A stretch of DNA of 64,000 nt, taken from assembly GCA_964397755.1 (NCBI GenBank), contig CAYNJY010000004.1:1117-65116 (forward strand), written 5' to 3'. Below, piece by piece: positions 13,764-40,805 of the stretch. Every line of letters begins with the position of its first letter. Position 1 is the stretch's first letter. The translations under genes were made by a program, and so were the position numbers. Below the pieces are notes generated by a model, which saw nothing but the letters and a program-made list of their open reading frames with translations, ran no database searches and was not told where the DNA came from. This DNA is from an uncultured Gammaproteobacteria bacterium (GTDB taxonomy: Bacteria > Patescibacteriota > Microgenomatia > UBA10105 > UBA927).

Positions 13764-15491
13764 CTACTTCCGTTCAATATTAAAAAGGCTGTTGCGGATC
13801 GATATGTAGCCTGGCGCACGAAGATTAAAGACTTGCTTAAAATCAGCTCCTGAGATAGTAGCACCCCCTCGATTGGTCTGCAGAATCACGCTTTCGGTAT
13901 ATCCGCCGCTGTTGTATGTAACTGAAATGGACGAAACAGACGAATATGCGCCACCGAGGCTGCTTGCCGCTTCGCGCATTTCGCTCATGGAATAGGGATT
14001 TCCTGAAGCACCGCCAATTGAGCAACTATTTATCGTTACCGGAAGTACCCTACTCTTGTCACCGCCTTGAGTTAAGACCACCCAGGCATTGAGGATATCC
14101 GCAAATTCCTCTCCTGTAAGCCACGGATGAGACCGACCGCACTTCCCTGAGGAGTTATAGTAGTCGGCGGTGTACCATCCTTTGTAAAACCAAGGGCTGC
14201 CCGCAATCTTTTCGTACGCGCCGTTTGTCCAGCATCCCTGATTCCCACAGGTTGTGTCCCACCCCATGGTCGAAAGGTACCCTCCGGTTGTCGAGGAATA
14301 GTAGCCAACAACGTCCTCAAGAATCTGGCCGCGCGTCTCCTCCACCGCAGACCGCCACTCTGCCGGAGGGCTATCAGCTTTTGATTTTGAAAACACCTGA
14401 CATGCTTGCGTCGTACAAATCGTCAAACCGCCCGTTTTGTAGCGCCAAGCATAGGTGCGAGCAGCCACGGCTTGCGCCTTGAGCGCTTCTTTCGGAAACG
14501 AGGAAGGCATCTCGGCAATCCCCATGAGGTAGAAGCTCTCAAACTCAAGGTTGCCGTAGCCAGAAACACTGATCGTGCCTCCGGTGTCCTTCTCCACCGG
14601 CTCTTTGCCGTAGTACGCGCGCAGAATATCCCGGTACCCCTGCCCACTCTCTGCCCTTCCTTTCGCGCCGTACTGACTCATGCCTTTTTTGTGCGTATAG
14701 GCGCCAAAGGAAAATCCTCCAAAAGCCGGCCGGAAGCCCGGATCGAATTCCGGCGAGGCGTTCGGGTCATCGGCAAGGGGAACATCACCCAAACTTGTGG
14801 TAAACGTGCCTGAGCGAGCATTTAAGATCGCCTGCTGCTGCGCGGTTAAGCTTGCGATGAAGCCAGATATTTTCGTTTGGTAGGCACGAGCCTCGCCAAC
14901 GAGCTTTCGCACACTGACCGCTCGCCGGTCGGTTTCTTCCCTGAGGTACGCGAGCGTCCCTTTTTCTTTCTCAAGCACCCTCTTTTTGCCCTCAAGAGTA
15001 TGCACCAGCACCGCAACCTGACTAATTGCCTTCTTGTCTTCGTTAATCACCGCTCTCTGGTAGGCAAACATCCGAACAACCGATCCGACATTCGTGCCAC
15101 TGAGAAACGGCGTGAGGGAACTAAAAGAGGAGGTTTTCCGGTAGAGCTGTCCGATGCGCCGGCTCGCAAGGAGAAGGAGGTTTCCGAGTTCGCGTTCGCC
15201 TGTATCTATTGCAGCTGACTTCCGTGACACATCAGCCTCAATGATTTTAATGCGATTTTGGAACGCAGTGATGTCGGCCTCCATCTTGCGAAGCGCGTCT
15301 TCGTGTGGCTTTTTTGCAACCTCCATTTGGTTCCACGCTTCCTGACACTTCCCTATTTTCTGCCGACATTCATCAACGCCACTGCAAGTTGGGTCGCACG
15401 TCTGAGCAGATACCACCGGTACCAGCTTGAAACAGAATACCGCGTTGATACAGACACTAAAAATGGCGAGTCCAACTACGTTTTTTCGCAT
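13764..15491 (-). CDS. SpoIID/LytB domain protein (secreted, with N-terminal coiled-coil region)
   Basis: Signal peptide, a long coiled-coil segment, then a SpoIID/LytB core (SGYGNLEFESFYLMGIAEMP...AQAVAARTYA). Confidence 0.75.
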   Translation of the reverse strand: MRKNVVGLAIFSVCINAVFCFKLVPVVSAQTCDPTCSGVDECRQKIGKCQEAWNQMEVAKKPHEDALRKMEADITAFQNRIKIIEADVSRKSAAIDTGERELGNLLLLASRRIGQLYRKTSSFSSLTPFLSGTNVGSVVRMFAYQRAVINEDKKAISQVAVLVHTLEGKKRVLEKEKGTLAYLREETDRRAVSVRKLVGEARAYQTKISGFIASLTAQQQAILNARSGTFTTSLGDVPLADDPNASPEFDPGFRPAFGGFSFGAYTHKKGMSQYGAKGRAESGQGYRDILRAYYGKEPVEKDTGGTISVSGYGNLEFESFYLMGIAEMPSSFPKEALKAQAVAARTYAWRYKTGGLTICTTQACQVFSKSKADSPPAEWRSAVEETRGQILEDVVGYYSSTTGGYLSTMGWDTTCGNQGCWTNGAYEKIAGSPWFYKGWYTADYYNSSGKCGRSHPWLTGEEFADILNAWVVLTQGGDKSRVLPVTINSCSIGGASGNPYSMSEMREAASSLGGAYSSVSSISVTYNSGGYTESVILQTNRGGATISGADFKQVFNLRAPGYISIRNSLFNIERK

Positions 15492-15569
15492 ATCCGGAAT
15501 TACTTCATTGTATCATCGGAGGCTACTCTTGCGCTTCCTTTTCTATACCCCTTTTGCTACACTATTTCT

Positions 15570-16352
15570 GTGAAAGATCTACTCCGCATTCTAGCAATCT
15601 TTATACTCTCTTTTTGGGTGTTCATGCATCCCACAGGAGCAGGGGCGGCGAGTTGTGGTGATATCATCTTGTCTCTAGACCCGCCGGCACCCGCACAGAA
15701 TCAAAACGTAGACGCAATTATCACCATTTCCAATAACGACAAACTGGAGCTCTACGTCGATGCTCGAAGTTCGACGAGCACATTGCGTCGTATAGTCCAA
15801 ACGGTTCTTTCCCGAAAAGTAAAAACGATACAGGGGCCGGTCACCAATCTCCGCGTCCCAATGGGTACACTGAAAAAAAGCGACTACGTGATGTGGCTTG
15901 AACGGTCAACGCTCTTTGGGCCGCTGCGAGCTGACCCGAATGTCTGCTCCCAAACGTTCACAGTGTCTGAAACAGGTGGTCAGGTTAGCTCTGAAATACT
16001 CCGCAATGTCTGTCGGACCGTGTCAGAGAAAGACGGAAAGAAAAAAACATGTGAAGAGTGCTTCTTAAACCGTGGCGGCGCATGGACCGCGCTCGGCTGC
16101 ATCGAGATAACACCGGACAAATTTATTCAAAAATTTCTCTCCTTCGGCGTGAGTGTCGGCGGGGGCATCGCGTTCCTCCTTGTTCTGTTCGGTGGCTTCC
16201 AGGTTCTCACGAGTGCCGGAAACCCGGAACGCTTGATCGCCGGGAAAGAGCTCGTCGGCGCAGCAATCTCCGGCCTTCTCCTTATCATCTTCTCGCTCTT
16301 TCTCCTCCGACTCGTTGGATTGACTATACTTGGGCTCCCCGGATTTGAGTAA
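15570..16352 (+). CDS. pilin-like protein with N-terminal Cys-containing ectodomain fused to a VirB2/TrbC-like two-helix pilin module
   Basis: Start at GTG 15570 gives a signal-peptide-like N-terminus. A roughly 170 aa domain with 6 Cys follows. The C-terminal 70 aa are FLLVLFGGFQVLTSAGNPERLIAGKELVGAAISGLLLIIFSLFLL, which has the same helix-GGxK loop-helix pattern as the pilin paralogs at 25.7-28.0 kb. Confidence 0.55.
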   Translation: MKDLLRILAIFILSFWVFMHPTGAGAASCGDIILSLDPPAPAQNQNVDAIITISNNDKLELYVDARSSTSTLRRIVQTVLSRKVKTIQGPVTNLRVPMGTLKKSDYVMWLERSTLFGPLRADPNVCSQTFTVSETGGQVSSEILRNVCRTVSEKDGKKKTCEECFLNRGGAWTALGCIEITPDKFIQKFLSFGVSVGGGIAFLLVLFGGFQVLTSAGNPERLIAGKELVGAAISGLLLIIFSLFLLRLVGLTILGLPGFE

Positions 16353-16353
16353 C

Positions 16354-16707
16354 ATGGTATCTATGAAAAACCTCCTTGCTCAGGCACTGACTCTTCCGGA
16401 TAACACCAAGCTCGTGTACCCAAACGAGTTTCAAGATTTCCAGACTCGCTTTCCATCTCTTGGGAGTATCCTGACCATGGCACTGCGATTTATCTTTGCC
16501 TTTGCCGGAATTGGGCTCCTCCTTATGATTCTCTCCTCTGGTTTTACACTCCTCACGAGCGGCGGGGACCCAAAAAAACTTGAGATGGGAAGAAACCGAA
16601 TCACCAATGCGATTGTTGGGTTTGTGATTATTTTCGTCGCGTTTTGGCTGACGCAACTTATGGGAATTATCTTTGGTATTGCCGAGATCGGTACAATCTT
16701 CAAGTAG
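16354..16707 (+). CDS. VirB2/TrbC-like T4SS pilin family protein (paralog 2)
   Basis: 117 aa. FAFAGIGLLLMILSSGFTLLTSGGDPKKLEMGRNRITNAIVGFVIIFVAFWLTQLMG, two hydrophobic helices flanking a conserved SGGD-KKL--RNRITN loop. Confidence 0.6.
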   Translation: MVSMKNLLAQALTLPDNTKLVYPNEFQDFQTRFPSLGSILTMALRFIFAFAGIGLLLMILSSGFTLLTSGGDPKKLEMGRNRITNAIVGFVIIFVAFWLTQLMGIIFGIAEIGTIFK

Positions 16708-16709
16708 CG

Positions 16710-17411
16710 CTAAGTCCCGAATCGCCGCTGTCGCCTGAAAAACTCCGCAATTACCTCATCAAGCTTCTCGGGGGTAAACTCCGGCATGTACCACGGAGGA
16801 AAAACAATTTCACTGTACTCGCTTTGCCAAAGAAGAAACCCGCTCAAACGCTGCTCGCCACCGGGACGAACGATGAGATCCGGATCGGGAATGCCTGCGG
16901 TGTCCAAGAGCGAAGAAAAGATTTGTTCGCTCAATTTGAAATTTGAAATTTGAAATTTGAAATTTCCGTGCAATCTTTGGATTGCACGGATGATCTCGTC
17001 TCTTCCGCCGTAGTTCAACGCAAACACTACCGTAATTTTTGTATTGTCCTTCGTTTGTTCAACCACCTTCTCAAGGGCATTTTTTATATCCGGCGCGAAC
17101 TTTGATATATCGCCTATTGCCAACACGCGCACACCTTTCTCATGAAGCCTTTGCCAGCGCTTCTGTATGACGTGTCGAAAGAGGCGCATGACTCCCTCCA
17201 CCTCCCTTTTGTCCCGCTGCCAATTCTCTGTTGACCAGGCCCAGAAGGTCATGAACTTAACGCCCCGCTTGGCGGCATACTCAATGAGGGGTTCTAAAAT
17301 TTTGTCCGTCACCCGCCGATGTCCTTCCAGAACCGGCAATCCCTGCTCCCGCGCCCACCGCCGATTGCCGTCCATGATGACGGCGATATGTTGAGGGATA
17401 TTTTTTCCCAT
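16710..17411 (-). CDS. uppS: undecaprenyl diphosphate synthase (cis-prenyltransferase)
   Basis: Conserved motifs HIAVIMDGNRRWA, FWAWSTENWQR and RPGGEQRLSGFLLWQSEYSE. It carries an in-frame insertion, NFKFQISNFKL, encoded by an (AAATTTC)n tandem repeat. Confidence 0.85.
   Translation of the reverse strand: MGKNIPQHIAVIMDGNRRWAREQGLPVLEGHRRVTDKILEPLIEYAAKRGVKFMTFWAWSTENWQRDKREVEGVMRLFRHVIQKRWQRLHEKGVRVLAIGDISKFAPDIKNALEKVVEQTKDNTKITVVFALNYGGRDEIIRAIQRLHGNFKFQISNFKLSEQIFSSLLDTAGIPDPDLIVRPGGEQRLSGFLLWQSEYSEIVFPPWYMPEFTPEKLDEVIAEFFRRQRRFGT
16932..16966. repeat. heptamer tandem repeat (GAAATTT)x4-5 inside uppS
   Basis: Plus strand reads caatttgaaatttgaaatttgaaatttgaaatttcc. The same unit in the same coding orientation recurs at 49165-49205. 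Confidence 0.85.
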
Positions 17412-17414
17412 ATC

Positions 17415-20306: not shown

Positions 20307-20337
20307 ACAACAACTGCAAATTTTAAAGTTTGAATTT

Positions 20338-20643: not shown

Positions 20644-20650
20644 AGGGTAA

Positions 20651-21832: not shown

Positions 21833-21908
21833 AATCTATACATCTGCACATGGCAAATCTGCGTCAGTCATGTATTTGCTTATTTGTAGATTTGTTTATT
21901 TGTAGATT

Positions 21909-22952: not shown

Positions 22953-22954
22953 AT

Positions 22955-22985
22955 GTTTCAAATCCCAAATCTCAAATCCCAATGT
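22955..22985. repeat. oligomer tandem repeat (CAAATCC-type x4) at the HMGR/HMGS junction
   Basis: caaatcccaaatctcaaatcccaatg. It spans the HMGR stop and the 20-nt gap before the HMGS start. Confidence 0.8.
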
Positions 22986-24153: not shown

Positions 24154-24235
24154 GGTTTCATGGCTACATTGCTCCATGGTTACATTGAGTTTTTGACAAT
24201 GAAACAATGTGGCAATGGAACAATGTTGTACTAAA
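24150..24235. repeat. CAATGNNN-type octamer repeats at the HMGR start
   Basis: catggtttcatggctacattgctccatggttacattgagtttttgacaatgaaacaatgtggcaatggaacaatgttg. This is near-identical to the copies at 9556-9592 and 46850-46878. Confidence 0.75.
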
Positions 24236-25687: not shown

Positions 25688-25722
25688 GTTGACAACCGCC
25701 CTGCCCCTCACATACACTGATC
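25688..25722 (+). promoter_or_regulatory. sigma-70-like promoter for pilin paralog 3 (leaderless candidate)
   Basis: TTGACA, an 18-nt spacer, TACACT, then ATG about 3 nt after the -10. The TTG used as start in the ORF track is the first triplet of the -35 TTGACA. Confidence 0.35.
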
Positions 25723-25724
25723 GT

Positions 25725-26027
25725 ATGGATGGCGTCAATCTCGGCGATCCGTTGGTCTTTTCTCCTGCTACATCTTTCCCCACATTTGGGGATTTTGTTG
25801 GAATCGTCATAAAGAACGCGTTTGTCGTCGCGGGACTGTTAAGCTTTATCATATTGATTTTGGGCGGTTTCCGACTTATAGTAGCTGGTGGAGACACGAA
25901 GAAGCTTGATCAGGCAAGGGGAGCAGTCAGCGGTGCTGTTACTGGTTTGATTCTTGTGGTCTCATCGTACTGGATTGTACAGATAGTTGAAGCGATTACC
26001 GGTCTCCCACTATTATCACCCAAGTAG
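25725..26027 (+). CDS. VirB2/TrbC-like T4SS pilin family protein (paralog 3)
   Basis: VVAGLLSFIILILGGFRLIVAGGDTKKLDQARGAVSGAVTGLILVVSSYWIVQIV. Start assigned to ATG 25725. Confidence 0.6.
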   Translation: MDGVNLGDPLVFSPATSFPTFGDFVGIVIKNAFVVAGLLSFIILILGGFRLIVAGGDTKKLDQARGAVSGAVTGLILVVSSYWIVQIVEAITGLPLLSPK

Positions 26028-26031
26028 CTAT

Positions 26032-26382
26032 ATGGACAAGAATGTTTCGGACTTATTTGGTACGATCACAAATCCGCTGAATCGCTACGGCGGCCTTGAC
26101 GAAGACGGGCTTATCTTATTCCTCACAAACATACTTCGCTTGGTGTTCGTCGCTGCGGGCGTGTACGCTTTCCTCAACATCATCGTTGCCGGCTTCCAGT
26201 TCATGAACGCAGACGGTGATAGCAAGGCCATTGCTACTGCCTGGAAACGCATCTGGCAATCGCTCGTGGGGCTCGTTCTCATTACTGGGTCGTTTGCTCT
26301 CGCTGCTGTTTTTGGCTATCTCATATTTGGCGACGCGGGCTTTATCCTCCGACCGCGCGTCTTTGGCCCGGGAGGAGAGTAA
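26032..26382 (+). CDS. VirB2/TrbC-like T4SS pilin family protein (paralog 4, divergent loop)
   Basis: FVAAGVYAFLNIIVAGFQFMNADGDSKAIATAWKRIWQSLVGLVLITGSFALAAVFG. Same two-helix topology. The loop is diverged. Confidence 0.55.
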   Translation: MDKNVSDLFGTITNPLNRYGGLDEDGLILFLTNILRLVFVAAGVYAFLNIIVAGFQFMNADGDSKAIATAWKRIWQSLVGLVLITGSFALAAVFGYLIFGDAGFILRPRVFGPGGE

Positions 26383-26387
26383 AGCAT

Positions 26388-26792
26388 ATGGCAACACCAA
26401 CTGGAACACCGATCGGAGAAATTTCAGGACCAGGGCTCGGACCGTTTGGGACAATTACGAAAGAACTCGCCTCTGGTGAAGCCGGCGGTGTTACCGGCCT
26501 CCAAAAAGTCTCAAACATCATCTCGGGCATTATCGGCATCTTAACAGTCGCCGCAGGTATTTGGTTCATGATCCAGTTTCTCATCGGGTCCTTCTACTGG
26601 ATCACCTCTGGTGGAGATAAAGGGAAGCTTCAAGAAGCGAAAAACAGAATCACGCACGCGTTTATCGGCCTCATTATCGTCATTGCCGGCTGGTCGATTA
26701 TCGCCCTCATGGGTAAATTCTTCAATTTTGATATCCTCCTTTCTGAGCCAAGAACGATTATCCGAGGTCTCTACCCTGGAGGAGGTCAGTAA
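26388..26792 (+). CDS. VirB2/TrbC-like T4SS pilin family protein (paralog 5)
   Basis: IIGILTVAAGIWFMIQFLIGSFYWITSGGDKGKLQEAKNRITHAFIGLIIVIAGWSIIALMG. ATG start. A 1-nt gap separates it from the next paralog. Confidence 0.65.
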   Translation: MATPTGTPIGEISGPGLGPFGTITKELASGEAGGVTGLQKVSNIISGIIGILTVAAGIWFMIQFLIGSFYWITSGGDKGKLQEAKNRITHAFIGLIIVIAGWSIIALMGKFFNFDILLSEPRTIIRGLYPGGGQ

Positions 26793-26793
26793 C

Positions 26794-27144
26794 ATGGAAC
26801 GAGCGCTCGCGGTGATTCGAAACCCCATTCTTCCACCCTCCCTTGGCGGCGGCACCGCGCCATCGGTTGAATCGGGTGGCAAGGGGGTGGGGCTTCTTAT
26901 CGGGAACATCATTGGTGGGCTTTTTATCTTTGGGTTTATCATTGCTTTTTTCTACCTTCTCACGGGCGCGTTCTTCTGGATTACGAGTGGCGGCGATAAG
27001 AACGGGTTGGAAAGTGCAAGAAACCGCATCATTCACTCCCTTGTTGGGCTTTTAATCCTCGCATCTGCCTGGGCGATGTTCTCACTGGTTGGGAAGTTTT
27101 TCGGTATAGATCTGCGGAACCTGCCGATCCCATCAATTAAATAA
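26794..27144 (+). CDS. VirB2/TrbC-like T4SS pilin family protein (paralog 6)
   Basis: Start at ATG 26794 (MERALAV...). FIFGFIIAFFYLLTGAFFWITSGGDKNGLESARNRIIHSLVGLLILASAWAMFSLVG. Confidence 0.65.
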   Translation: MERALAVIRNPILPPSLGGGTAPSVESGGKGVGLLIGNIIGGLFIFGFIIAFFYLLTGAFFWITSGGDKNGLESARNRIIHSLVGLLILASAWAMFSLVGKFFGIDLRNLPIPSIK

Positions 27145-27168
27145 ACCCCTATTGACAAGGCTCCTCTT

Positions 27169-27198
27169 GTTGCACAACAATGAATGGTAGCGTATAAT
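27169..27198 (+). promoter_or_regulatory. sigma-70 promoter upstream of pilin paralog 7
   Basis: TTGCAC, an 18-nt spacer, TATAAT, then GAGGAGG Shine-Dalgarno 7 nt before ATG 27224. Confidence 0.5.
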
Positions 27199-27223
27199 CA
27201 TTTTGTTTCACGAGGAGGACTCT

Positions 27224-27556
27224 ATGCATAAAGTGCTCGCACAGGCGAAAATTGAAATCAAGCAACCGTCTTCCATCAGAATCACTGAAATCGGACAACT
27301 CATTAGCGCGGTTGTCGGCACTCTTCTCATCGTTGCAGCCCTGTTGGCGTTCCTCTACCTCATTCTCGGAGGCATCAAGTGGATTACAAGCGGCGGAGAC
27401 AAAGCCGGCATGGAAGAAGCGCGCAATAAAATCACCCACGCAATCGTCGGACTTATTATCGTCGGCGCTGCCTGGGCCATCATGACGCTCATTCAAAACT
27501 TCCTCGGCGTCACGATCATTGGCGGAACCATTGAGTTTCCAAAGCCTTTTTTATAG
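27224..27556 (+). CDS. VirB2/TrbC-like T4SS pilin family protein (paralog 7)
   Basis: LLIVAALLAFLYLILGGIKWITSGGDKAGMEEARNKITHAIVGLIIVGAAWAIMTLI. Start at the SD-preceded ATG 27224. Confidence 0.65.
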   Translation: MHKVLAQAKIEIKQPSSIRITEIGQLISAVVGTLLIVAALLAFLYLILGGIKWITSGGDKAGMEEARNKITHAIVGLIIVGAAWAIMTLIQNFLGVTIIGGTIEFPKPFL

Positions 27557-27639
27557 GCAAAAACACTAAGGGACGTAAAAATCCTCGACGACAGCCGGGG
27601 ATTTTTGTTTTTCAGGAAATACCGTATACTCTACGTACC

Positions 27640-27969
27640 ATGATTCTCCCGCTTCTTTCCGTCATCCGGGCCGCGCCCCTCACGGATACGATCGAGGACG
27701 TTCCAACAATTCTCTCGTTCGAGTCGCTCTTCCGCAATATTGTTGGTGCCGTCGTTGCACTCTCTGGGATTGCGATTTTCATCATGCTCCTCGTCGGGGG
27801 CTTTACGTACCTCTTCTCCGGGGGTGACCAAAAAAAGCTCGAGCAAGCCCGTGGCACTATCACCAATGCTGTCGGCGGGCTTGTCATTATCGTCGCAGCC
27901 TACCTCATCCTTCAGACCATCAAGGCGTTCACCGGCGTTGACGTCACAATCTTTCGCATTCCTCGGTAA
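27640..27969 (+). CDS. VirB2/TrbC-like T4SS pilin family protein (paralog 8)
   Basis: VVALSGIAIFIMLLVGGFTYLFSGGDQKKLEQARGTITNAVGGLVIIVAAYLILQTI. Confidence 0.65.
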   Translation: MILPLLSVIRAAPLTDTIEDVPTILSFESLFRNIVGAVVALSGIAIFIMLLVGGFTYLFSGGDQKKLEQARGTITNAVGGLVIIVAAYLILQTIKAFTGVDVTIFRIPR

Positions 27970-34706: not shown

Positions 34707-34775
34707 ACGTTGCCTATTATAATTCGTGAAAAGAAAAATTGGTAGTTTTCACGATTCTGATGCGCTTTTTTATAC

Positions 34776-34804
34776 TTGATGCCAGCGGTATAACCTTCTA
34801 CAAT
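34776..34804 (+). promoter_or_regulatory. sigma-70 promoter upstream of the T4SS-like operon
   Basis: TTGATG, a 17-nt spacer, TACAAT, about 40 nt upstream of ATG 34844. Confidence 0.4.
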
Positions 34805-34843
34805 ACTTTCTGCGGCTCTCAGTGTATACTTTGCTATCAACGA

Positions 34844-35950
34844 ATGATGAACACGCGACCTATGGAGCAACACCCAGTACCACAAAATGTCACAACGTTC
34901 CAGTTTCGCCTTGTTGGCGACATGACCATCAAGCAGTTTGGGTATCTTGCCGCCGGGGCGATCCTCGCATTCGTAAGTTACAAGTTGCCGCTTCCTTTAT
35001 TCTTTACGTGGCCGCTGACGAGCTTCTTTACCTTTTTAGGCATTGGATTTGCCTTTGTCCCGATCGAAGAGCGACCGATGGACGTCTGGGTTTTTTCATT
35101 TCTCCGAAGTGTCTACAGTCCCACGCAGTACGTGTGGCAACCGCGGCCGGTAGCCCACGTACAGGAACCTCCGAAACCTCCGAACGGTAACGGCCGTAAA
35201 CAGGCCTATCCTTCCCCTGTGTCAAAAGAAGCCTCACTGATGTCAAAGCTTTTTGATGCCTTTGGCATGCCCGCGCGTAAGCCCGAAACTTCCCCACGCG
35301 TTCTGCCGACCCAACAAAAACAGGAGGTCCCCTCGCCTGCCGAGCTTGCGGCTCTTGCCGGTCGCATATCCCAGCTTCAGCATGAGGTTGAAACAAAACA
35401 TAAAACAGAAGATCGGCTCCTTGAGCTTCAATCGCAGCTCACCGCTCTGCTTGCCGACAAGAAGCGGCTTGAGGACAGACTCATGTCTCTCGGGCACGCG
35501 CAAAGCGCACAAACATCACCGTTATCAAAACCAGCCCCTACCTTACCGGTAAACACTCCGGGTGCGACAGTCAAGGTTATTGGTCCGGCACAAGCGCCGC
35601 GTATTGGCATACCAAAACTTACAACTGTGCCAAACGTGCCTTCTGGCATCATCAAAGACAATCAGGGGAACTTTCTCCCCGGAGTCATTGTGACAATTCG
35701 GGATGCGGAGGGGATTCCTCTTCGGGCGCTCAAGACGAATAAACTCGGACAGTTTGCAGCATCCACTCCACTCACCAACGGAACCTACACTGTAGAGGTT
35801 GAGGATCCGCGCGCTCGCTATGTCTTTGACCGCGCGCAGATACCGCTCTCTGGCGCGGTCGTGCCCGCGCTTGAAATAACAGCAATAAGCCAGAAAGAAA
35901 TTTCCCGGCAAAAACTTGCACAGCAAATATTCGGCGACCAAAACATATAG
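34844..35950 (+). CDS. T4SS-associated membrane protein (two-TM N-domain, Pro-rich linker, coiled coil, C-terminal beta-rich domain)
   Basis: Start at ATG 34844. FQFRLVGDMTIKQFGYLAAGAILAFV plus a second TM helix, then a coiled coil (LQHEVETKHKTEDRLLELQSQLTALLADKKRLEDRL), then about 130 aa C-terminal. It is directly upstream of VirB4, the position of VirB3/VirB8-like components. Confidence 0.45.
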   Translation: MMNTRPMEQHPVPQNVTTFQFRLVGDMTIKQFGYLAAGAILAFVSYKLPLPLFFTWPLTSFFTFLGIGFAFVPIEERPMDVWVFSFLRSVYSPTQYVWQPRPVAHVQEPPKPPNGNGRKQAYPSPVSKEASLMSKLFDAFGMPARKPETSPRVLPTQQKQEVPSPAELAALAGRISQLQHEVETKHKTEDRLLELQSQLTALLADKKRLEDRLMSLGHAQSAQTSPLSKPAPTLPVNTPGATVKVIGPAQAPRIGIPKLTTVPNVPSGIIKDNQGNFLPGVIVTIRDAEGIPLRALKTNKLGQFAASTPLTNGTYTVEVEDPRARYVFDRAQIPLSGAVVPALEITAISQKEISRQKLAQQIFGDQNI

Positions 35951-35953
35951 CCC

Positions 35954-36643
35954 ATGACAGACCCAGTCGCTCCCATAAAAGATTCTACGCAAATGTTTAC
36001 AGAAATTGAGGACGTGAAAGACGGCGTCATCCTTTTCATAGATGGTTCAGCTGCAATGATTGTGTCTGTCTCTGCGGTAAACTTTGGCCTGCTCTCAGAG
36101 AGAGAGCAGGACGCGATTATCTATGCATACGCCGGGTTTCTAAATTCCCTCTCGTTCCCAATCCAGATCCTTGTTCGCACCCAGCAGAAAGACGTCACGG
36201 CATACCTTCGCTCCCTTGAGGAGCAACAAGAACGGCAGAAAAATCCGAAGCTTGTGGGGAGTATCAAGGCGTACCGCGCTTTCATCGCAACAACCGTGAA
36301 GGAAAAAGACGTGCTTGATAAAAAATTCTACATCGTGATTCCTTTTTCTAACCTTGAACTCGGCGCTGCGCCGTCACTTCTCTTTGGCACGACGAAGAAA
36401 CGCGGCCTTCCCTACCCGAAACCGTATATCTGGGAAAAGGCAAAAACGGCTCTCTCTCCCAAGAGAGACCACGTCATTCGGATTCTCGCGCGCGTCGGGC
36501 TTCGCTCGACGGCTATGACGGACGAGCTCATCGTCCGACTCTTTTTTGGCATATACAACCCAGGGAGCCCAGCACCCGTCCTTCCTTTAGATACCATCCA
36601 GCCGCACAAGCTCGTGTCGGGCGCACCGACTATGCTGCCGTAG
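35954..36643 (+). CDS. VirB4-like ATPase, N-terminal segment separated by an in-frame TAG
   Basis: 229 aa. It is in the same frame as the downstream ATPase ORF, interrupted only by TAG 36641-36643 followed by 5 sense codons. Confidence 0.5.
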   Translation: MTDPVAPIKDSTQMFTEIEDVKDGVILFIDGSAAMIVSVSAVNFGLLSEREQDAIIYAYAGFLNSLSFPIQILVRTQQKDVTAYLRSLEEQQERQKNPKLVGSIKAYRAFIATTVKEKDVLDKKFYIVIPFSNLELGAAPSLLFGTTKKRGLPYPKPYIWEKAKTALSPKRDHVIRILARVGLRSTAMTDELIVRLFFGIYNPGSPAPVLPLDTIQPHKLVSGAPTMLP

Positions 36644-36658
36644 AAGAACGCCCTGCCT

Positions 36659-38557
36659 ATGAACCTTTCGTCAATGATTCAACAATTTCTCCGGCCCCCT
36701 GCCGCCGATCCTACGATACAAACGCCGCCCGGGCGACTCATGACACCGACTGATATTGTTGCACCGCCAGCAATTGAGGTGGACTTCGATCACCTTAAAA
36801 TCGGCGAGTGGCACTATCGAACCCTCTTTGTGGCGGGGTATCCTCGATTTGTCAGCTCAAATTGGCTTGAACCACTCATCTCCTTTGGTCATACGCTCGA
36901 TATTTCAATGTTTATCTACCCTGCTCGCTCAGGGGAAATCCTCGACAACCTCAAGCGGAAAGTCGGCGAGATGGAAGCGACAATTCAGTCTGATCTCAAA
37001 CGCGGCAAAACCATAGAACCGTCGGTTCAAATTGCACTCGAGGACGCCCTCACACTGCAACAGGACCTCGCCAAAGGAGCGCAGCGCTTCTTTCAATTCG
37101 GCCTCTACATTACCATCCCAGCAAAAACAAAAGAAGATCTCGACAAGACAACGAAGCAGATAGAGGCTACTCTCGGATCCCTCCTTGTCGTAAGCAAGAA
37201 AGCGACGCTACAAATGGAAGAAGGCTTCAAAACGACGCTTCCGATTGGAAAAGACCGGCTCCTCGTGACGCGGAATATGGATACGACCTCCCTTGCGGCC
37301 ACCTTCCCTTTCACGACCTCAGAGCTCTCCGCCAACGAGGGCATCCTTTACGGCATTAACACCGGCAACGACAGCCTCATTGTGTTTGACCGCTTCTCTT
37401 TGGAAAACGCCAACGCGGTCGTCTTCGGCAAATCGGGCTCGGGAAAATCGTACCTGATCAAGCTGGAAATTATGCGCAGCCTCATGTTTGATACCGACGT
37501 CATTGTGATCGACCCTGAAAATGAGTATGAAGCGCTGACCTACGCCCTTGGCGGCGAGTATGTTCGCTTTCATTTCGGGGCGGCCACAAAAATCAACCCG
37601 TTTGATCTCGCCATTCTGACAGGAAAAACGCGAGACGACGAAAACGAGCTCAACCAAAAAATACTCTCTCTCCACGGCTTCTTTCGCGTTGTCATGGGCG
37701 CGCTTACCCCGACAGAGGACGCTCTCCTCGATCGCGCACTCGTGCTTTCATATAAACAGAAAGGGATGACCCCTGATCCTACGACGCAAAAGGCTGAGCC
37801 GCCCCTCATGGAAGATCTCTACAAGGTGCTCGTCGGCATGGAAGATCCCGTCGCACGATCTCTCGCAGACCGGATCGAAAAGTTTGTCAAAGGAAGCTTG
37901 GTTGGCATTTTTGACGAGCAGACAAACATAGAGATACGAAATCAGCTCACTGTTTTCTCTATTCGGGATCTTGAAAATGAGCTCCGCCCCATTGCGATGC
38001 ACCTAATACTCGATTTTATATCGAACAAAATTCGGCGTGACACCAAAACGCGGCTCCTTGTCGTTGACGAGGCGTGGTACCTCATGAAATTTCCAGACTC
38101 TGCACAGTTTCTGAACTCAATCGCAAAGCGAGCGAGAAAATATTTCCTGGGCCTGACAACCATTACACAGGATGTCGAGGATTTTCTCGCGGTCGATCTT
38201 GGAAAAACGATTATTCAAAACAGCAGTCTTCAAATTCTCCTCAAACAGTCGCCTGCGGCAATCGACACGGTCGCAAATCTTTTCTACCTGTCAGAGGGAG
38301 AGAAAAGGCTCCTCTTGTCTGCGGGCGTCGGCCAGGGCCTCTTTTTTGCCGGTCCAGCCCACGCATCGATGCGCGTCGTTGCAAGCCCGGAGGAACACGC
38401 GCTGGCTACCACCCATCCGAAAGACATCTATGAGAATGCGGGGCCGGGAGGAAGGGATATCCCCCATCTCCCAGAGCAACGCCCAGGCGTATCTACCAAT
38501 CGGCCGGTATTCACTGTTGAGCCAGTGCAGAAAGAGACCCCCTCGTCCGATGTGTAA
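36659..38557 (+). CDS. VirB4/TrbE-like T4SS ATPase (C-terminal segment with Walker motifs)
   Basis: Walker A VVFGKSGSGKSY, Walker B RLLVVDEAWYLM. Together with the upstream segment the length is about 860 aa, typical for VirB4. Confidence 0.75.
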   Translation: MNLSSMIQQFLRPPAADPTIQTPPGRLMTPTDIVAPPAIEVDFDHLKIGEWHYRTLFVAGYPRFVSSNWLEPLISFGHTLDISMFIYPARSGEILDNLKRKVGEMEATIQSDLKRGKTIEPSVQIALEDALTLQQDLAKGAQRFFQFGLYITIPAKTKEDLDKTTKQIEATLGSLLVVSKKATLQMEEGFKTTLPIGKDRLLVTRNMDTTSLAATFPFTTSELSANEGILYGINTGNDSLIVFDRFSLENANAVVFGKSGSGKSYLIKLEIMRSLMFDTDVIVIDPENEYEALTYALGGEYVRFHFGAATKINPFDLAILTGKTRDDENELNQKILSLHGFFRVVMGALTPTEDALLDRALVLSYKQKGMTPDPTTQKAEPPLMEDLYKVLVGMEDPVARSLADRIEKFVKGSLVGIFDEQTNIEIRNQLTVFSIRDLENELRPIAMHLILDFISNKIRRDTKTRLLVVDEAWYLMKFPDSAQFLNSIAKRARKYFLGLTTITQDVEDFLAVDLGKTIIQNSSLQILLKQSPAAIDTVANLFYLSEGEKRLLLSAGVGQGLFFAGPAHASMRVVASPEEHALATTHPKDIYENAGPGGRDIPHLPEQRPGVSTNRPVFTVEPVQKETPSSDV

Positions 38558-38576
38558 TTTGTCACGCTAAACACGT

Positions 38577-40805
38577 ATGGAAGCGGAATCACTGCTCCTT
38601 CTTGATTTTCTTGAACGCATAGTCCAAGAGCTAGCGAAGGAGAAGGGCGTCCCGGTAAGCGCAGCCCGGGCATATATCGAGAGCCAACAGTACCCGTTTC
38701 TCCGTCAGTTTCTGTCCGCGAGAAAGGAGGGGCTGATCCAGTCATTTCTCGCGGGGGACCGCGCGTTTACCAATGCGCTTCTTCGGCTTCTCCGCGAGGC
38801 GCGCATGAGCGTCCGTGAGCAACTAACGGCATTCCAAAAAGAAAAACCAGATACGCCACTTTCACCCCAAGAGGTCGTCCAGAGGGCCCTCTACTGGCAG
38901 GAGGCTCAGAAAACTATCGCCCACGCGCAAGAAAACTACCTTCTCGCTGCGCGCGGAAAGCGTAGGCAGCGCGTTCACGATCTTATAGCCCGATGGGTGT
39001 CCGAACAAAAAAACGAAACCCTCTCATCTTCCCTCCCCGACCTTATTCGTCAAGCAGACAGCGCGCTCGGGAAGCAGAATCAATACGGCGATGTTCTCTA
39101 CACGGTAAGCTCGCTCCTTCGCGCGCGTAAAGAAACGCAACCGTTCTTTGAGAAAAATCCAGATCTTTTAAGAGATATCGCCCTCCGGGTTCCTCCGCCT
39201 CGTGAAGAAACCCAGCTTGCCAAATCAGCCTCTATGCTTCAGCTGTCTCTTGGTGCGGCTCTTGTTTCCTCTCCGCTCCTCACCAGGGCGGATTACCTTG
39301 CCGGGCTTCTAGTCCAAGGCGTCGACGTCAGTCGGACTCTCTCCATTGTGAGAGTTCTCGAAGCGCTCGACTCTCCGTTACCGCTTGATGAGCTCCTCTC
39401 CTGCGGCCGCGTGTTTCGGTCTCTCTCAAAAAGCCCAATCCAGAAAACCTTTGCGCCACTTGCTGATTCTGTTTTCCTCCGACTGCCGAGAGGGACCAGG
39501 CGCGCTATCCTCGAGAAGGTGGTTGGTCGGTCGCTTGAACACGCGCTCGATTACCTTCAGCGATCGCTCGGCGCTGCCATTATCAACACCCCGGCATACC
39601 AGTCGCTTCTTGTCACACAAAACACTCTCTTGGGCGGCCCTCCTCTCTCGCTTGCCCTGTCCGGATTCTCCAAGTTTACGGGTGACATTTTTACGACAAT
39701 CTTTCGTGGACCAAACGAGGCTGCCATTCTGTATTTTGAGGCGTCTCGAAGATCTATCGGTCAAGGAAGTCCGCTGGGCCTCTCGCCTCTTCTCTCCGGC
39801 TCCCTTGCACTCTCTTTCCCAACCCTCTATAAAACGTACTTCGATCCTGTATCTGGTCGGTGGGCAGTCGGAACGCAATCGTCTCTTCGGAGGATCGCTG
39901 CTTTTGGCTCGGGCGCAGCTTCGCGCGCAGGGCGTGGCTTGTTCGGTTTCGCATCCCGCATCCTCGGCACAGGGCTCCTTGCGATCGGCGCACTCCTCCA
40001 AGCTGGGTTTGGCGGTCTCATTAGCGCTCTCTCCGGGGGCAAAGTCTCACTCTCTCTTCGTCAAGCCATTCACGGAATTTTTCCTCCAACAAAGCTTACA
40101 GATGACCTTCCGAAGCTTATCTCGGTATCAACGACGATCGCCATAGTCCTTCTTTTTGTCCTCCCGACATTTTTTAACCCCTCGTTTACTTCCTGGCTCA
40201 GCAAAACGAGCGCACTCCTGGTGAGTCTTGCGAGCCCAGAGGCACAGGGGGGGCCAGTCCCAAAATACCCCCAGGCACCCTGTGTTCCAACGAGCCAGGG
40301 ATTGTGCAGGTGGCCAACCGCTGGATGCATCTCTCAGGGACCATACAGCCCGTGGCCAGGATCCCATAGAGGAGGAGCTGCCAACGCGATCGACATCTCG
40401 GCCTCAAGCGGAACGACGGTCACCTCAACAATACAAGGGCGCGTCGAGGCGGTCTATGCTCGGTGTTTTGATAACTCAGGATACCGAGGGAACACCTGTG
40501 GCGGCGGCTACGGCAACTATGTTGTCGTCATATCGAGCGATGGAACTATCCGACTCCTCTACGGTCACCTCTCGCGCCGAGGACTCCCGAGGCCCGGTGC
40601 GCTCGTCTCTCTCGGAGCCCCCCTTGGAAACGTTGATCAAACTGGCAATTCGAGCGGGCCACACCTTCACTACCAACTCGACAGCGCACAACACATAAAC
40701 AGCAGGCTCCCGTTCCCGGTTCCCTCTTGTATCGGAAAGGCCCTTTGTGATGCAGCCATCCGTCTCCAATCGAAAGGAAAATACACATGCAACGTAAAAC
40801 CATAG
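38577..40805 (+). CDS. transmembrane M23-family peptidoglycan endopeptidase with large N-terminal cytoplasmic domain
   Basis: 742 aa. About 480 aa N-terminal domain of unknown function, two TM helices, then an M23 domain (GSHRGGAANAIDIS ... GNSSGPHLHYQLD). Confidence 0.7.
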   Translation: MEAESLLLLDFLERIVQELAKEKGVPVSAARAYIESQQYPFLRQFLSARKEGLIQSFLAGDRAFTNALLRLLREARMSVREQLTAFQKEKPDTPLSPQEVVQRALYWQEAQKTIAHAQENYLLAARGKRRQRVHDLIARWVSEQKNETLSSSLPDLIRQADSALGKQNQYGDVLYTVSSLLRARKETQPFFEKNPDLLRDIALRVPPPREETQLAKSASMLQLSLGAALVSSPLLTRADYLAGLLVQGVDVSRTLSIVRVLEALDSPLPLDELLSCGRVFRSLSKSPIQKTFAPLADSVFLRLPRGTRRAILEKVVGRSLEHALDYLQRSLGAAIINTPAYQSLLVTQNTLLGGPPLSLALSGFSKFTGDIFTTIFRGPNEAAILYFEASRRSIGQGSPLGLSPLLSGSLALSFPTLYKTYFDPVSGRWAVGTQSSLRRIAAFGSGAASRAGRGLFGFASRILGTGLLAIGALLQAGFGGLISALSGGKVSLSLRQAIHGIFPPTKLTDDLPKLISVSTTIAIVLLFVLPTFFNPSFTSWLSKTSALLVSLASPEAQGGPVPKYPQAPCVPTSQGLCRWPTAGCISQGPYSPWPGSHRGGAANAIDISASSGTTVTSTIQGRVEAVYARCFDNSGYRGNTCGGGYGNYVVVISSDGTIRLLYGHLSRRGLPRPGALVSLGAPLGNVDQTGNSSGPHLHYQLDSAQHINSRLPFPVPSCIGKALCDAAIRLQSKGKYTCNVKP

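What the first reader, a model, noticed from the sequence alone, without database searches (positions are those of the whole stretch)
15570..16352. Pilin module fused to a Cys-containing extracellular domain (candidate tip or adhesin pilin)
The C-terminal 70 aa of this protein are a bona fide member of the two-helix pilin family seen in the main array. About 170 residues precede it, containing a signal-peptide-like start and six cysteines (ASCGD, CSQTF, CRTV, CEEC, GC). A large ectodomain on a pilin scaffold is how minor or tip pilins with binding functions are usually built. A second plain paralog follows 2 nt later. The ORF track places its start inside the convergent SpoIID gene, so the GTG at 15570 is the plausible start.
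Basis: partly seen in the sequence, partly recalled or inferred. Interest (0 to 1): 0.55.

Follow-up and report, generated by a model that had tools for sequence, protein, structure and literature searches.

The report
Secretion-system pilin carrying a swappable surface head
A tiny uncultivated (Patescibacteria) bacterium encodes a type IV secretion-system pilin that carries an antibody-like surface domain on its outer end; in related species that domain is swapped or missing at the same gene position, so it is a candidate for how these bacteria recognise their hosts.

Summary
Window 15570-16352 (+) is one uninterrupted 260-aa gene. It has a Sec signal peptide (1-26), a confidently predicted seven-strand Ig/FN3-like beta-sandwich (27-135; Cys29, Cys126), a conserved four-Cys "neck" (136-181) and a two-helix VirB2-type T4SS pilin hairpin (182-253, Pfam PF18895).

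A plain pilin gene follows directly. The window also holds six more plain pilins and a Gram-positive-type T4SS (PrgI, TrsD-like, VirB4, M23 hydrolase) next to dnaN/dnaA.

The gene belongs to an orthogroup found in at least 223 Microgenomatia species genomes, usually at the same site: SpoIID | headed pilin + plain pilin | UPP synthase.
- Neck plus hairpin are 52-68% identical, like the housekeeping neighbours.
- The head is a cassette. It is absent in about half of members, and the rest fall into at least 27 unrelated, mostly Cys-rich types with no Pfam match.

GTG 15570 is the right start; the public annotation starts at Met19 and loses the signal peptide.

Best reading (inferred, not shown): a minor or cap pilin that displays a lineage-specific binding domain for the Patescibacteria T4SS, for which no adhesin has been reported. 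It is a new variant of a known kind. Tip location and binding are untested.

The parts
15570..15647 (+). Sec-type signal peptide, aa 1-26. It has an n-region (M-K-D-L-L-R), a 12-residue hydrophobic core (ILAIFILSFWVF) and a c-region (MHPTGAGA), with A-G-A at positions -3 to -1.
   Evidence: AF2 predicts a helix at residues 2-18. Homologs align with canonical signal peptides. No other in-frame start between the SpoIID start (15491) and 15570 is available, and ATG 15624 would remove the signal peptide.
15648..15974 (+). Variable 'head', aa 27-135: a seven-strand Ig/FN3-like beta-sandwich. Cys29 sits before the first strand and Cys126 at the start of the last; a disulfide between them is inferred.
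   Evidence: AF2 strands at 32-37, 46-53, 58-66, 82-88, 91-100, 104-112 and 126-133, with block pLDDT mostly 77-96 and two weaker loops at 61-66. Foldseek matches FN3, monobody, VHH and CEACAM domains at E about 1e-3 and TM up to 0.6. Homologous heads occur in only 5 other proteins among the 63 long-headed hits clustered. No Pfam match.
15975..16112 (+). Conserved four-Cys 'neck', aa 136-181: two short helices plus a beta-hairpin, with motifs VCxxV...CxxC...(G)AWTA(L/I)GCI. Cys148, Cys161, Cys164 and Cys177 are present.
   Evidence: C164 and C177 are invariant, and C148 and C161 are at least 90% conserved, across 57 sequences. Head-less members also carry 4 Cys here. AF2 predicts H139-150, H157-168, E170-173 and E176-179.
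16113..16328 (+). VirB2-type T4SS pilin hairpin, aa 182-253: helix 182-214, loop TSAGNPERL, helix 219-253.
   Evidence: Pfam PF18895 matches residues 185-248. hhalign against plain pilins gives 98.2% probability. Hydropathy shows two transmembrane-length segments. AF2 supports the two helices.
16329..16352 (+). Conserved C-terminal tail (ILGLPGFE) and the TAA stop. The family ends one residue after 'PGF' in most members; the commonest distance from the GC cysteine to the C-terminus is 84 aa, with a range of about 82-98.
16354..16707 (+). Partner plain pilin, 114-117 aa, probably co-transcribed and translationally coupled. The likely start is ATG 16363 (MKNLLAQALTLP...). It has no signal peptide and no Cys.
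   Evidence: PF18895 at 35.9 bits, above the cut-off. It is 45-60% identical to the gene that follows the headed pilin in 8 syntenic loci. A plain pilin follows the headed pilin on the same strand in 63 of 72 surveyed species loci.
25689..27969 (+). Main array of six plain VirB2-like pilin paralogs (context; same family as the hairpin).
   Evidence: phmmer and Pfam hits. Alignment. The two array members compared (arr1, arr2) have 1:1 orthologs in other genomes at 53-66% identity, while paralogs are 25-38% identical.
34739..40805 (+). Core of the T4SS (context): a PrgI/VirB3-like protein with a C-terminal beta-sandwich (34739-35950), a TrsD-like protein (35954-36643), a VirB4 ATPase (36659-38557) and a membrane protein with an M23 peptidase domain (38577-40805). 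dnaN and dnaA follow at 41852-44572 on the minus strand.
   Evidence: NCBIfam VirB4 CD1110 family at E 7e-117 and TrsD at 7.6e-5. Pfam PrgI, Peptidase_M23, DnaN and DnaA.

Best explanation
The gene encodes a Sec-exported, VirB2/TrbC-type (PF18895) pilin paralog of the chromosomal, dnaA-proximal, Gram-positive-type T4SS of a Microgenomatia (Gottesmanbacteria-like) bacterium.

Inferred steps:
1. After signal-peptide cleavage near Ala26/Ala27, the N-terminal Ig-like head and the disulfide-stapled neck lie outside the membrane.
2. The first pilin helix crosses inward, the short charged loop (TSAGNPERL) faces the cytoplasm, and the second helix crosses back out. This is the orientation of known VirB2 pilins.
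3. In solved conjugative pili the loop lines the lumen and both termini lie on the outer surface. If this subunit is extracted into a VirB2-type filament or conduit, its head would therefore project from the outside.

Shown by comparison:
- The scaffold (neck plus hairpin) and a dedicated downstream plain pilin are conserved about as well as housekeeping genes at a fixed locus across Microgenomatia.
- The head is a replaceable cassette: none, one or two Ig-like domains, or small Cys-knot domains.

Proposed function: it is most likely a minor pilin, either a cap (first-in, therefore at the tip) or a sparsely incorporated subunit, working together with its partner pilin. It would present a lineage-specific binding domain for recognising or attaching to the host cell.

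Shown versus inferred: gene structure, fold, family membership, synteny and head variability are shown here. Topology, disulfides, incorporation into a filament, tip location and binding are inferred.
For: Gene and start codon:
- A continuous ORF.
- Homologs with signal peptides aligned to the GTG-initiated N-terminus.
- An identical protein in a second, independent assembly.

Pilin identity:
- PF18895 hit for the protein and for 56 of 57 family members.
- hhalign 98.2% probability, E 5e-14, against plain pilins.
- One paralog also hits TrbC/VirB2 PF04956.

T4SS context: VirB4 at 7e-117, PrgI, TrsD-like and M23, next to dnaN/dnaA. This matches the Patescibacteria T4SS described in PMC12102498.

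Fold:
- AF2 mean pLDDT 83.5, giving beta-sandwich, neck and helical hairpin.
- Ig/FN3 matches.
- The homolog P0004 has two tandem sandwiches.

Extracellular character:
- Signal peptides throughout the family.
- Cys counts in heads are mostly even: 0, 2, 4, 6 and higher, with several odd exceptions.
- No Cys in the hairpin.

Conserved scaffold with a swapped head:
- Identity to the window protein: C-module 52-68%, partner 45-60%, UPPS 55-71%, MVD 53-58%.
- The N-region gives no hit, or 21-28% identity in 3 of 8 loci.
- The closest relative by SpoIID (69%) has no head at all.
- 63 of 118 proteins carry heads, falling into at least 27 unrelated clusters.
- In 10 pairs with homologous heads, the head is always less conserved than the module, for example 39% against 88%.

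Pairing with a plain pilin: 63 of 72 species loci, including 6 that lack the SpoIID/UPPS synteny.

Geometry in known pili: the loop faces the lumen and the termini lie together away from it (PMC12037004).

[quoted passage not shown] The pilins are essential in Southlakia (PMC10633639).
Against: - No pilus has been observed for any Patescibacteria T4SS; reviews speak only of a 'potential to elaborate conjugative pili' (PMC12857230).
- The head matches only generic Ig/FN3 folds at weak E-values (about 1e-3) and no known binding family.
- About half of the orthologs have no head, so a head is not required for the protein's core role.
- The gene lies about 9 kb from the pilin array and about 19 kb from virB4, separated by the mevalonate operon. 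The link to the T4SS therefore rests on homology, not adjacency.
- Faster head evolution was not shown to be positive selection: omega is 0.18 against 0.07, with saturated dS.
- The protein's own PF18895 score is below Pfam's cut-off.
Confidence: 0.5

Rival explanations
1. Membrane-anchored surface protein. The pilin-derived two-helix hairpin serves only as a membrane anchor, or as a stationary part of the T4SS channel in the membrane or cell wall. The head is displayed on the cell surface and is never polymerised into a filament.
For: - No filament is known for monoderm-type T4SSs, and their classical forms lack VirB2 (PMC12102498; PMC12857230).
- The gene sits apart from the array.
- All eight pilin paralogs look like individually conserved orthogroups rather than one major subunit plus variants, which would fit a fixed hetero-oligomeric channel.
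Against: - The hairpin and its loop are far more conserved than a generic anchor needs: invariant Q211, S215, G217, N218, P219 and E220.
- It keeps the family hallmark shared with plain pilins.
- The strict pairing with a dedicated plain pilin suggests assembly with other pilins.
Confidence: 0.25
2. Pro-pilin with a removable pro-domain. The head, with or without the neck, would be cleaved off during maturation, as with the long leaders and terminal trimming of VirB2, TraA and TrbC. It would act as an export or folding aid, or be released as a secreted factor.
For: - Known VirB2-type pilins are processed at their termini, and some are cyclised after C-terminal trimming (PMC12037004).
- The family has a fixed C-terminal 'PGF-x' end that could be a processing motif.
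- Head-less orthologs show that the scaffold works without a head.
Against: - Folded, disulfide-bearing Ig-like or tandem Ig-like domains of up to about 340 aa are unlike leader peptides.
- No conserved cleavage motif is evident between head and neck.
- The neck is conserved and contiguous with helix 1.
Confidence: 0.12
3. Lipoprotein variant. The signal peptide would be cleaved by signal peptidase II at Cys29 (G-A-A-S-C fits the relaxed PROSITE lipobox rule as I recall it). The mature protein would then be lipid-anchored at its N-terminus as well as held by the hairpin, keeping the head against the membrane.
For: - Cys29 follows small residues (A-A-S) at a suitable distance from K2 and R6.
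- Many headed homologs have '...A-A-C' straight after the hydrophobic core.
Against: - Head-less family members have plain AxA sites with no Cys nearby, for example P0008 '...PALAATPTP'.
- Position -3 is Ala, not Leu/Val/Ile.
- Cys29 pairs naturally with Cys126 in the sandwich, and two-Cys heads recur in P0002 and P0006.
- No lgt or lspA gene was looked for outside this window.
Confidence: 0.08
4. The public annotation is right. Translation would start at Met19 (ATG 15624), there would be no signal peptide, and the N-terminal domain would be cytoplasmic.
For: The database protein P0001/P0122 is 242 aa and starts MHPTGAG. ATG is a commoner start codon than GTG.
Against: - Every full-length homolog has an N-terminal signal peptide aligned with residues 1-26.
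- A cytoplasmic domain with paired Cys followed by an out-to-in helix would invert the family topology.
- The 18 upstream codons encode a textbook n-region and h-region.
Confidence: 0.03

Closest known systems
VirB2-like pilins of the Patescibacteria T4SS (Pfam PF18895 T4SS_pilin; arrays described by Quinonero-Coronel et al. 2025, PMC12102498; essential pilins of Southlakia epibionticum, Wang et al. 2023, PMC10633639)
   Same: Same helical-hairpin family. Same kind of genome and the same T4SS make-up near dnaA. It coexists with an array of six plain paralogs.
   Different: - It carries a Sec signal peptide, a conserved four-Cys neck and a 109-aa Ig-like head. The window's array pilins have none of these.
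- It is encoded outside the array, in a conserved two-gene unit with its own partner pilin.
- The papers I could search do not mention pilins with ectodomains.
Conjugative pilins of Gram-negative bacteria (TraA of F, VirB2 of the T-pilus, TrbC of RP4, TrhA of R27)
   Same: A small two- or three-helix hairpin with a lumen-facing loop and both termini together on the far side. It is made as a precursor with a cleaved leader and works with VirB4/VirB6-type machinery (PMC12037004; one window paralog hits TrbC PF04956).
   Different: - Those pilins are about 70 aa when mature, with no folded ectodomain, and some are cyclised head-to-tail. A large N-terminal domain would block cyclisation.
- No sequence match to any solved pilin was found.
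- The host here is a monoderm.
Two-domain tip adhesins of chaperone-usher pili (for example FimH: an N-terminal receptor-binding domain on a C-terminal pilin domain)
   Same: The same design logic: a variable N-terminal binding domain mounted on a conserved polymerisation module, one gene per system, working with adaptor subunits.
   Different: There is no homology. The pilin domain there is an Ig fold completed by donor-strand exchange, and assembly uses a different pathway. Binding by the head here is unproven.
VirB5 (tip protein of VirB/D4 pili) and the amplified TrwL/TrwJ variants of Bartonella
   Same: A proposed role as the host-contact element of a T4SS filament. Diversification of surface-exposed T4SS parts is linked to host range (discussed in PMC12102498; PMC12857230).
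   Different: No VirB5 homology was found. Diversity here comes from swapping a head domain on a single-copy gene between lineages, not from tandem gene copies within one genome.

Membership tests
VirB2-like T4SS pilin (Pfam PF18895 T4SS_pilin) | Match to the family HMM at or above the curated cut-off (26.6 bits) | tested here: not met
   The protein itself scores 20.2 bits, E 6.5e-4, over residues 185-248. The shortfall appears to come from subfamily divergence. 56 of 57 aligned relatives hit PF18895 at E<=0.01, with a best E-value of 9.5e-10, and most database homologs carry the precomputed PF18895 label.
VirB2-like T4SS pilin (Pfam PF18895 T4SS_pilin) | Profile-level homology to accepted members | tested here: met
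   hhalign of the headed family (A3) against the plain pilins (A4) gives 98.2% probability and E 5e-14 over 70 aligned columns covering both helices and the loop. A4 includes window members that pass the Pfam cut-off at 35.9-41.9 bits.
VirB2-like T4SS pilin (Pfam PF18895 T4SS_pilin) | Two hydrophobic helices joined by a short polar or charged loop, about 70 aa | tested here: met
   AF2 helices at 182-214 and 219-253. Hydropathy windows above 1.6 start at residues 188-199 and 222-241, and the loop is TSAGNPERL.
VirB2-like T4SS pilin (Pfam PF18895 T4SS_pilin) | Encoded in a genome, ideally near, a T4SS with VirB4 and VirB3/VirB6-type parts | tested here: met
   VirB4 (7e-117), PrgI and TrsD-like lie in the same window 19-21 kb away, and the pilin array is 9 kb away. 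The gene is not adjacent to them: the mevalonate operon lies between.
VirB2-like T4SS pilin (Pfam PF18895 T4SS_pilin) | Polymerises into an extracellular filament with bound phospholipid | not testable with these tools
   This needs microscopy or biochemistry. No such filament has yet been reported for Patescibacteria (PMC12857230).
Sec-secreted protein (signal peptidase I substrate) | N-terminal positive n-region, hydrophobic h-region, small residues at -3 and -1 | tested here: met
   K2 and R6; the core ILAIFILSFWVF; A24-G25-A26. Equivalent signal peptides occur in nearly all relatives. The test was rule-based only; no SignalP run was available.
Ig/FN3-like beta-sandwich domain | Seven-strand two-sheet sandwich with structural matches to Ig/FN3 domains | tested here: met
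   AF2 predicts seven strands with high pLDDT. Foldseek PDB hits to FN3 monobodies, VHH, CEACAM N-domains and CDO FN3 have TM (target) of 0.4-0.6 but weak E-values of about 1e-3. The tandem version in P0004 hits tandem Ig/FN3 receptors and adhesins at E 1e-5 to 1e-4. No Pfam Ig-type family was matched.
Pilus tip adhesin (FimH-like or VirB5-like) | Homology to a known tip adhesin or receptor-binding domain | tested here: not met
   No Pfam, NCBIfam or PDB-sequence match for the head. None either for 20 other long-headed relatives.
Pilus tip adhesin (FimH-like or VirB5-like) | Located at the filament tip and binds a receptor on the target cell | not testable with these tools
   Only indirect support is available: a variable head on a conserved scaffold at one locus.
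Type IV pilus (T4P) pilin | Class III signal peptide cleaved by a prepilin peptidase (as I recall: short basic leader, Gly at -1, Glu at +5) and a single N-terminal hydrophobic helix | tested here: not met
   The N-terminus is a classical Sec signal peptide, and the hydrophobic pilin part is a C-terminal two-helix hairpin. There are no T4P family hits.
Bacterial lipoprotein | Lipobox ending in Cys at the signal-peptide cleavage site | tested here: inconclusive
   G-A-A-S-C29 fits the relaxed PROSITE-type pattern as I recall it, but not the classical L-[AS]-[GA]-C. Head-less orthologs have no Cys there.

The most novel reading that the evidence does not exclude
Microgenomatia may build a heteropolymeric VirB2-type filament or conduit on a Gram-positive-type T4SS from eight anciently distinct pilin paralogs. 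The single signal-peptide-bearing, Cys-necked paralog, with its partner, would form the cap. Its swap-in head domain would be the host-specificity determinant. That would make it the missing adhesin of the Patescibacteria T4SS and a readable genomic marker of which host a given CPR lineage attaches to.
Probability: 0.25. Interest if true: 0.8.

Novelty: new variant of a known kind. Interest (0 to 1): 0.6.

Why it matters
The T4SS is one of the few machines shown to be essential for the epibiotic life of a cultivated Patescibacterium. Its function is described as completely unknown, and a phylum-wide survey found no associated adhesin (PMC10633639, PMC11665869, PMC12102498).

This protein is one pilin paralog with a conserved scaffold and an exchangeable extracellular head, at a fixed locus in at least 223 species genomes. 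It gives a concrete, testable candidate for the host-contact element of that machine.

It also offers a sequence handle, the head type, that could be correlated with host range in metagenomes.

If it does enter a filament, it would be a VirB2-type pilin carrying a folded domain, which known conjugative pilins do not have.

On the practical side, the public annotation of this gene starts too late and hides the signal peptide.

Tried and rejected
- **Head alone, single sequence (aa 27-150), against 1.8 billion cluster representatives.** Only itself and a 1141-aa eukaryote-like Ig-repeat protein (P0121, 7 repeats) were found. I treat that hit as repeat-boosted chance similarity between beta strands, not homology.
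- **Profile of six homologous heads (A2) against the 5.8-billion-protein set.** Nothing at E<=0.01, not even the members themselves. The search was uninformative and cost one of the capped searches.
- **PDB sequence search with the family profile.** No hit at E<=10.
- **BFVD viral fold search.** Only generic FN3, Big and tail-fibre Ig-like domains.
- **Model coordinates.** They are not exposed to scripts, so Cys-Cys distances could not be measured.
- **Promoter and terminator scan of 15300-16900.** Counts were within chance.
- **dN/dS of head against module.** Species-level pairs are too diverged. The best pair has dS of 0.86-1.8, so positive selection can be neither shown nor excluded.
- **Mobile-element or plasmid origin.** Rejected: the flanks are housekeeping genes (rpoD-like sigma factor, dnaG, thiamin pyrophosphokinase, smpB-region synteny, mevalonate operon, UPPS) and are syntenic across species.
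- **Functional link to the divergent SpoIID gene.** Considered but not adopted, because the adjacency may be only lineage synteny. The pilin pair persists in 6 loci without it.
Full report
**1. What is at 15570-16352**

The longest ORF in this frame runs from 15258 to 16352. Its first 78 codons overlap the 5' end of a SpoIID/LytB-domain gene on the opposite strand (13764-15491). Between the SpoIID start and 15570 there is no in-frame ATG, GTG or TTG. GTG 15570 is therefore the first usable start.

From that start the protein is 260 aa. It begins with a textbook Sec signal peptide: K2 and R6, the hydrophobic core ILAIFILSFWVF, and A-G-A at positions -3 to -1. The public copy of this protein (P0001, 242 aa; an identical P0122 comes from an independent Logan assembly) starts at Met19 and so lacks the signal peptide.

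The full-length homologs P0002 and P0006 (about 40% identity over 92-100% of the query) begin with clear signal peptides. So do P0004 and P0029. Those peptides align with residues 1-26 and are followed by a Cys in the same position as Cys29. The gene is not split: the ORF is continuous, two assemblies agree, and homologs share the architecture.

**2. Domain anatomy**

An AlphaFold2 model built on a 57-sequence alignment has mean pLDDT 83.5. It shows:
- a signal-peptide helix (2-18);
- a seven-strand beta-sandwich (32-133);
- two short helices (139-150, 157-168) and a beta-hairpin (170-179);
- two long helices (182-214, 219-253) joined by the loop TSAGNPERL.

The six Cys are at 29, 126, 148, 161, 164 and 177. 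Across the family, C164 and C177 are invariant and C148 and C161 are at least 90% conserved. Head-less members have exactly these four Cys and no others. The protein therefore has three layers:
- a variable head (27-135) with two Cys bracketing the sandwich;
- a conserved four-Cys neck (136-181);
- the pilin hairpin.

Cys numbers in the heads of relatives are mostly even (0, 2, 4, 6 and higher, with several odd counts). The hairpin has none. This is what disulfide-bonded extracellular domains would look like. The pairings themselves are inferred, because I could not read the model coordinates.

**3. Is the C-terminus a real pilin, and of what kind**

- Residues 185-248 hit Pfam PF18895 (T4SS_pilin) at 20.2 bits, under the 26.6-bit cut-off.
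- 56 of 57 relatives hit the same family.
- The window's plain pilins score 30-42 bits, and one also hits TrbC/VirB2 PF04956.
- A profile-profile comparison of the headed family with the plain pilins gives 98.2% probability and E 5e-14 over the whole hairpin.

This is a VirB2/TrbC-type T4SS pilin, not a type IV pilus pilin. The window carries the rest of the system:
- six plain pilins (25689-27969);
- a 514-aa polytopic membrane protein in the VirB6 position, with no family hit;
- a PrgI/VirB3-like protein;
- a TrsD-like protein;
- VirB4 (CD1110 family, E 7e-117);
- an M23 peptidase protein;
- then dnaN and dnaA.

That is the dnaA-proximal, Gram-positive-type T4SS with VirB2-like arrays described for Patescibacteria, especially Microgenomatia (PMC12102498).

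**4. The head**

Foldseek against the PDB returns only generic Ig/FN3-type sandwiches: FN3 monobodies, nanobodies, CEACAM N-domains and CDO FN3. E-values are about 1e-3 and target TM-scores reach 0.6. The viral library gives FN3, Big and tail-fibre domains. No Pfam or NCBIfam family matches it.

As a sequence family it is tiny. Among the 63 long-headed hits clustered, only five other proteins share it. The head alone found nothing credible in 1.8 billion representatives.

Three of the five relatives (P0003, P0004, P0029) have two such domains. The AF2 model of P0004 (pLDDT 80) shows two tandem sandwiches, then the neck and hairpin. It matches tandem Ig/FN3 receptors and adhesins such as OSCAR, tenascin, PECAM and SiiE at E 1e-5 to 1e-4.

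**5. The finding that changes the picture: one locus, one scaffold, many heads**

In nine loci recovered through individual homologs the order is the same:
smpB - ~610-aa gene - DUF5657 - ~200-aa gene - SpoIID (minus) | headed pilin, plain pilin (plus) | UPP synthase - mevalonate operon - Yip1 - sigma factor | pilin array.

The window has this order too.

| Gene, compared with the window | Identity |
|---|---|
| Neck plus hairpin | 52-68% |
| Partner pilin | 45-60% |
| UPPS | 55-71% |
| MVD | 53-58% |
| SpoIID | 38-69% |
| N-region | no hit, or 21-28% in three loci |

The genome closest by SpoIID (69%) has a 150-aa protein with no head.

Further points on head diversity:
- Protein lengths at this one position are 150, 160, 165, 256, 260, 270, 301, 341 and 370 aa.
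- Among 118 family proteins, 63 carry an insert of at least 40 aa. The inserts fall into at least 27 BLAST-unrelated clusters, most of them 50-60-aa six-Cys modules.
- Twenty long heads gave no Pfam domain.
- A scan of one genome per GTDB species found relatives in 223 genomes. Informative record titles are Gottesman-, Roizman-, Woese-, Blackburn- and Shapirobacteria and 'Microgenomates'. Many MAGs carry placeholder 'Gammaproteobacteria' titles.
- Of 72 loci with a recognisable headed ORF (115-477 aa), 63 are followed on the same strand by a plain pilin, 50 have the divergent SpoIID and 53 have UPPS. Six keep the pilin pair without either neighbour.
- Where two species share a homologous head, the head is always less conserved than the module (31-81% against 65-91%). 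In the closest pair, head dN is five times module dN, but dS is saturated, so positive selection is not shown.

**6. The other pilins**

The first two array pilins have 1:1 orthologs in other genomes at 53-66% identity, while paralogs within a genome are 25-38% identical. If that holds for the rest, the eight pilin genes (2 + 6) are old, individually conserved orthogroups. That fits a heteromeric structure with fixed roles better than rapid antigenic variation among copies.

Only the headed one has a signal peptide and Cys. Its head is the part that varies between lineages.

**7. Mechanism**

Shown:
- a secreted, VirB2-type pilin paralog with an Ig-like head;
- a conserved scaffold and a dedicated partner;
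- head exchange at a fixed locus;
- a T4SS in the same genome region.

Inferred from family knowledge:
- The topology is N-out, loop-in, C-out. The signal peptide forces the head outward, and the loop carries R and K.
- In solved conjugative pili the helix-loop-helix loop lines the lumen and the two termini lie together on the other side (PMC12037004). An N-terminal domain would therefore project from the outer surface.

Proposed: the headed pilin, with its partner, is a minor subunit of the T4SS filament or conduit. It would be either a cap, incorporated first and so carried at the tip, or a sparse decoration. It would present a lineage-specific binding domain toward the host cell.

This would fill the gap noted in the survey of 3,035 genomes ('No adhesins ... 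were detected', PMC12102498). It concerns a machine whose pilins are essential in Southlakia (PMC10633639) and whose role is 'completely unknown' (PMC11665869).

I put about 0.5 on this reading. The rivals are:
- a non-filament surface anchor or channel part (0.25);
- a cleaved pro-domain (0.12);
- a lipoprotein form (0.08, not exclusive with the others);
- the annotated Met19 start (0.03).

**8. Comparison with known systems and novelty**

Membership in the PF18895/VirB2-like family is supported at profile level, though not by the protein's own Pfam score. It is not a member of any known adhesin family.

It resembles FimH-type two-domain tip adhesins in design only, and VirB5 in proposed role only. 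Known conjugative pilins are about 70 aa when mature and carry no folded domain.

Patescibacteria pilin arrays are published, and some relatives are already labelled 'pilin' by NCBI. The kind is therefore known. The following were not found described in the literature I could search:
- the signal-peptide-bearing, Cys-necked subfamily;
- its fixed locus and partner gene;
- its exchangeable heads.

That library omits most subscription journals, so the absence is provisional. I rate this a new variant of a known kind, with interest 0.6. The functional claim, however, is still inference, and the organisms are uncultivated.

Noticed in passing
window 15570-15626: The public protein for this gene (P0001/P0122, 242 aa) starts at Met19 (ATG 15624) and so omits the signal peptide. 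Homologs show that GTG 15570 is the real start. The same mis-start may affect other family members; several database entries begin inside the head (for example P0012, P0017, P0025).
   Followed up: yes
window 16363-16400 and 25689-27700; L001-L009 partner genes: Plain pilins lack a signal peptide but share a short conserved N-terminal motif: M-x-K-(L/V)-(L/F)-A-Q-x-L-x-L-P in the partner orthologs, and related 'KVLAQAKIEIKQP' or 'RALAVIRNPILPP' in array members. It sits about 30-45 residues before the first helix. Its role (processing, recognition, or a strand that packs on the filament) is unknown.
   Followed up: partly
window 25689-27969 versus L004 17887-18541 and L006 19892-20585: The two array pilins compared have 1:1 orthologs between genomes at 53-66% identity, although paralogs are only 25-38% identical. 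The array therefore looks like a set of old, fixed paralogs rather than fast-varying copies. This nuances the 'antigenic variation' idea in the literature.
   Followed up: partly
window 34739-35950: The PrgI/VirB3-like T4SS protein (PF12666 at residues 46-132) has a long C-terminal extension. It ends in a CarboxypepD_reg/SdrD-B-like beta-sandwich (residues ~302-359) after a coiled-coil-like, Pro-rich stretch. This is a second T4SS part in the locus that carries an Ig-like extracellular module.
   Followed up: no
window 29584-33300 (minus strand): A 1238-aa ORF sits inside the T4SS region, between the VirB6-position membrane protein and nadE/nadD. It has no Pfam or NCBIfam match. It has a Gly/Pro/Lys-rich N-terminus and one C-terminal hydrophobic segment.
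   Followed up: no
window 28026-29570: A 514-aa polytopic membrane protein lies directly after the pilin array, in the position expected for VirB6, but it matches no Pfam or NCBIfam model. This fits the reported 'scarce' VirB6 detection in Microgenomatia (PMC12102498).
   Followed up: partly
window 36659-44572: The T4SS core (VirB4 and others) lies within about 4 kb of dnaN and dnaA, that is, next to the likely replication origin. This is as reported for many Patescibacteria.
   Followed up: partly
window 16710-24207 (minus strand): A complete-looking mevalonate-pathway operon plus UPP synthase separates the pilin pair from the pilin array, and it is syntenic in all related loci. The genes are HMG-CoA reductase, HMG-CoA synthase-like, thiolase, an OB-fold protein, three GHMP kinases or a decarboxylase, and UPPS.
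   Followed up: partly
L061, L071, L068, L052, L062 (Woese-/Blackburnbacteria-type loci): A more distant clade of the family has a two-Cys neck variant ('C...TA(V/L)GCIP...N(E/Q)F') and large heads of 200-265 aa that look like tandem beta-sandwich repeats. The longest heads seen are in L059 (477 aa) and L074 (452 aa).
   Followed up: partly
P0121 (hit): The head's only outside 'hit' was a 1141-aa eukaryote-like protein made of CD2-like Ig repeats (7 matched stretches, E 1e-7). This is probably chance similarity of beta strands multiplied by repeats, and a reminder that repeat proteins inflate phmmer scores.
   Followed up: partly
locus titles: Many genomes carrying this Microgenomatia-specific gene are titled 'uncultured Gammaproteobacteria bacterium' (binchicken and SRP co-assembly MAGs), and one is titled 'Bathyarchaeia archaeon'. 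These record titles look like placeholders or mis-binned contigs and should not be read as taxonomy.
   Followed up: no
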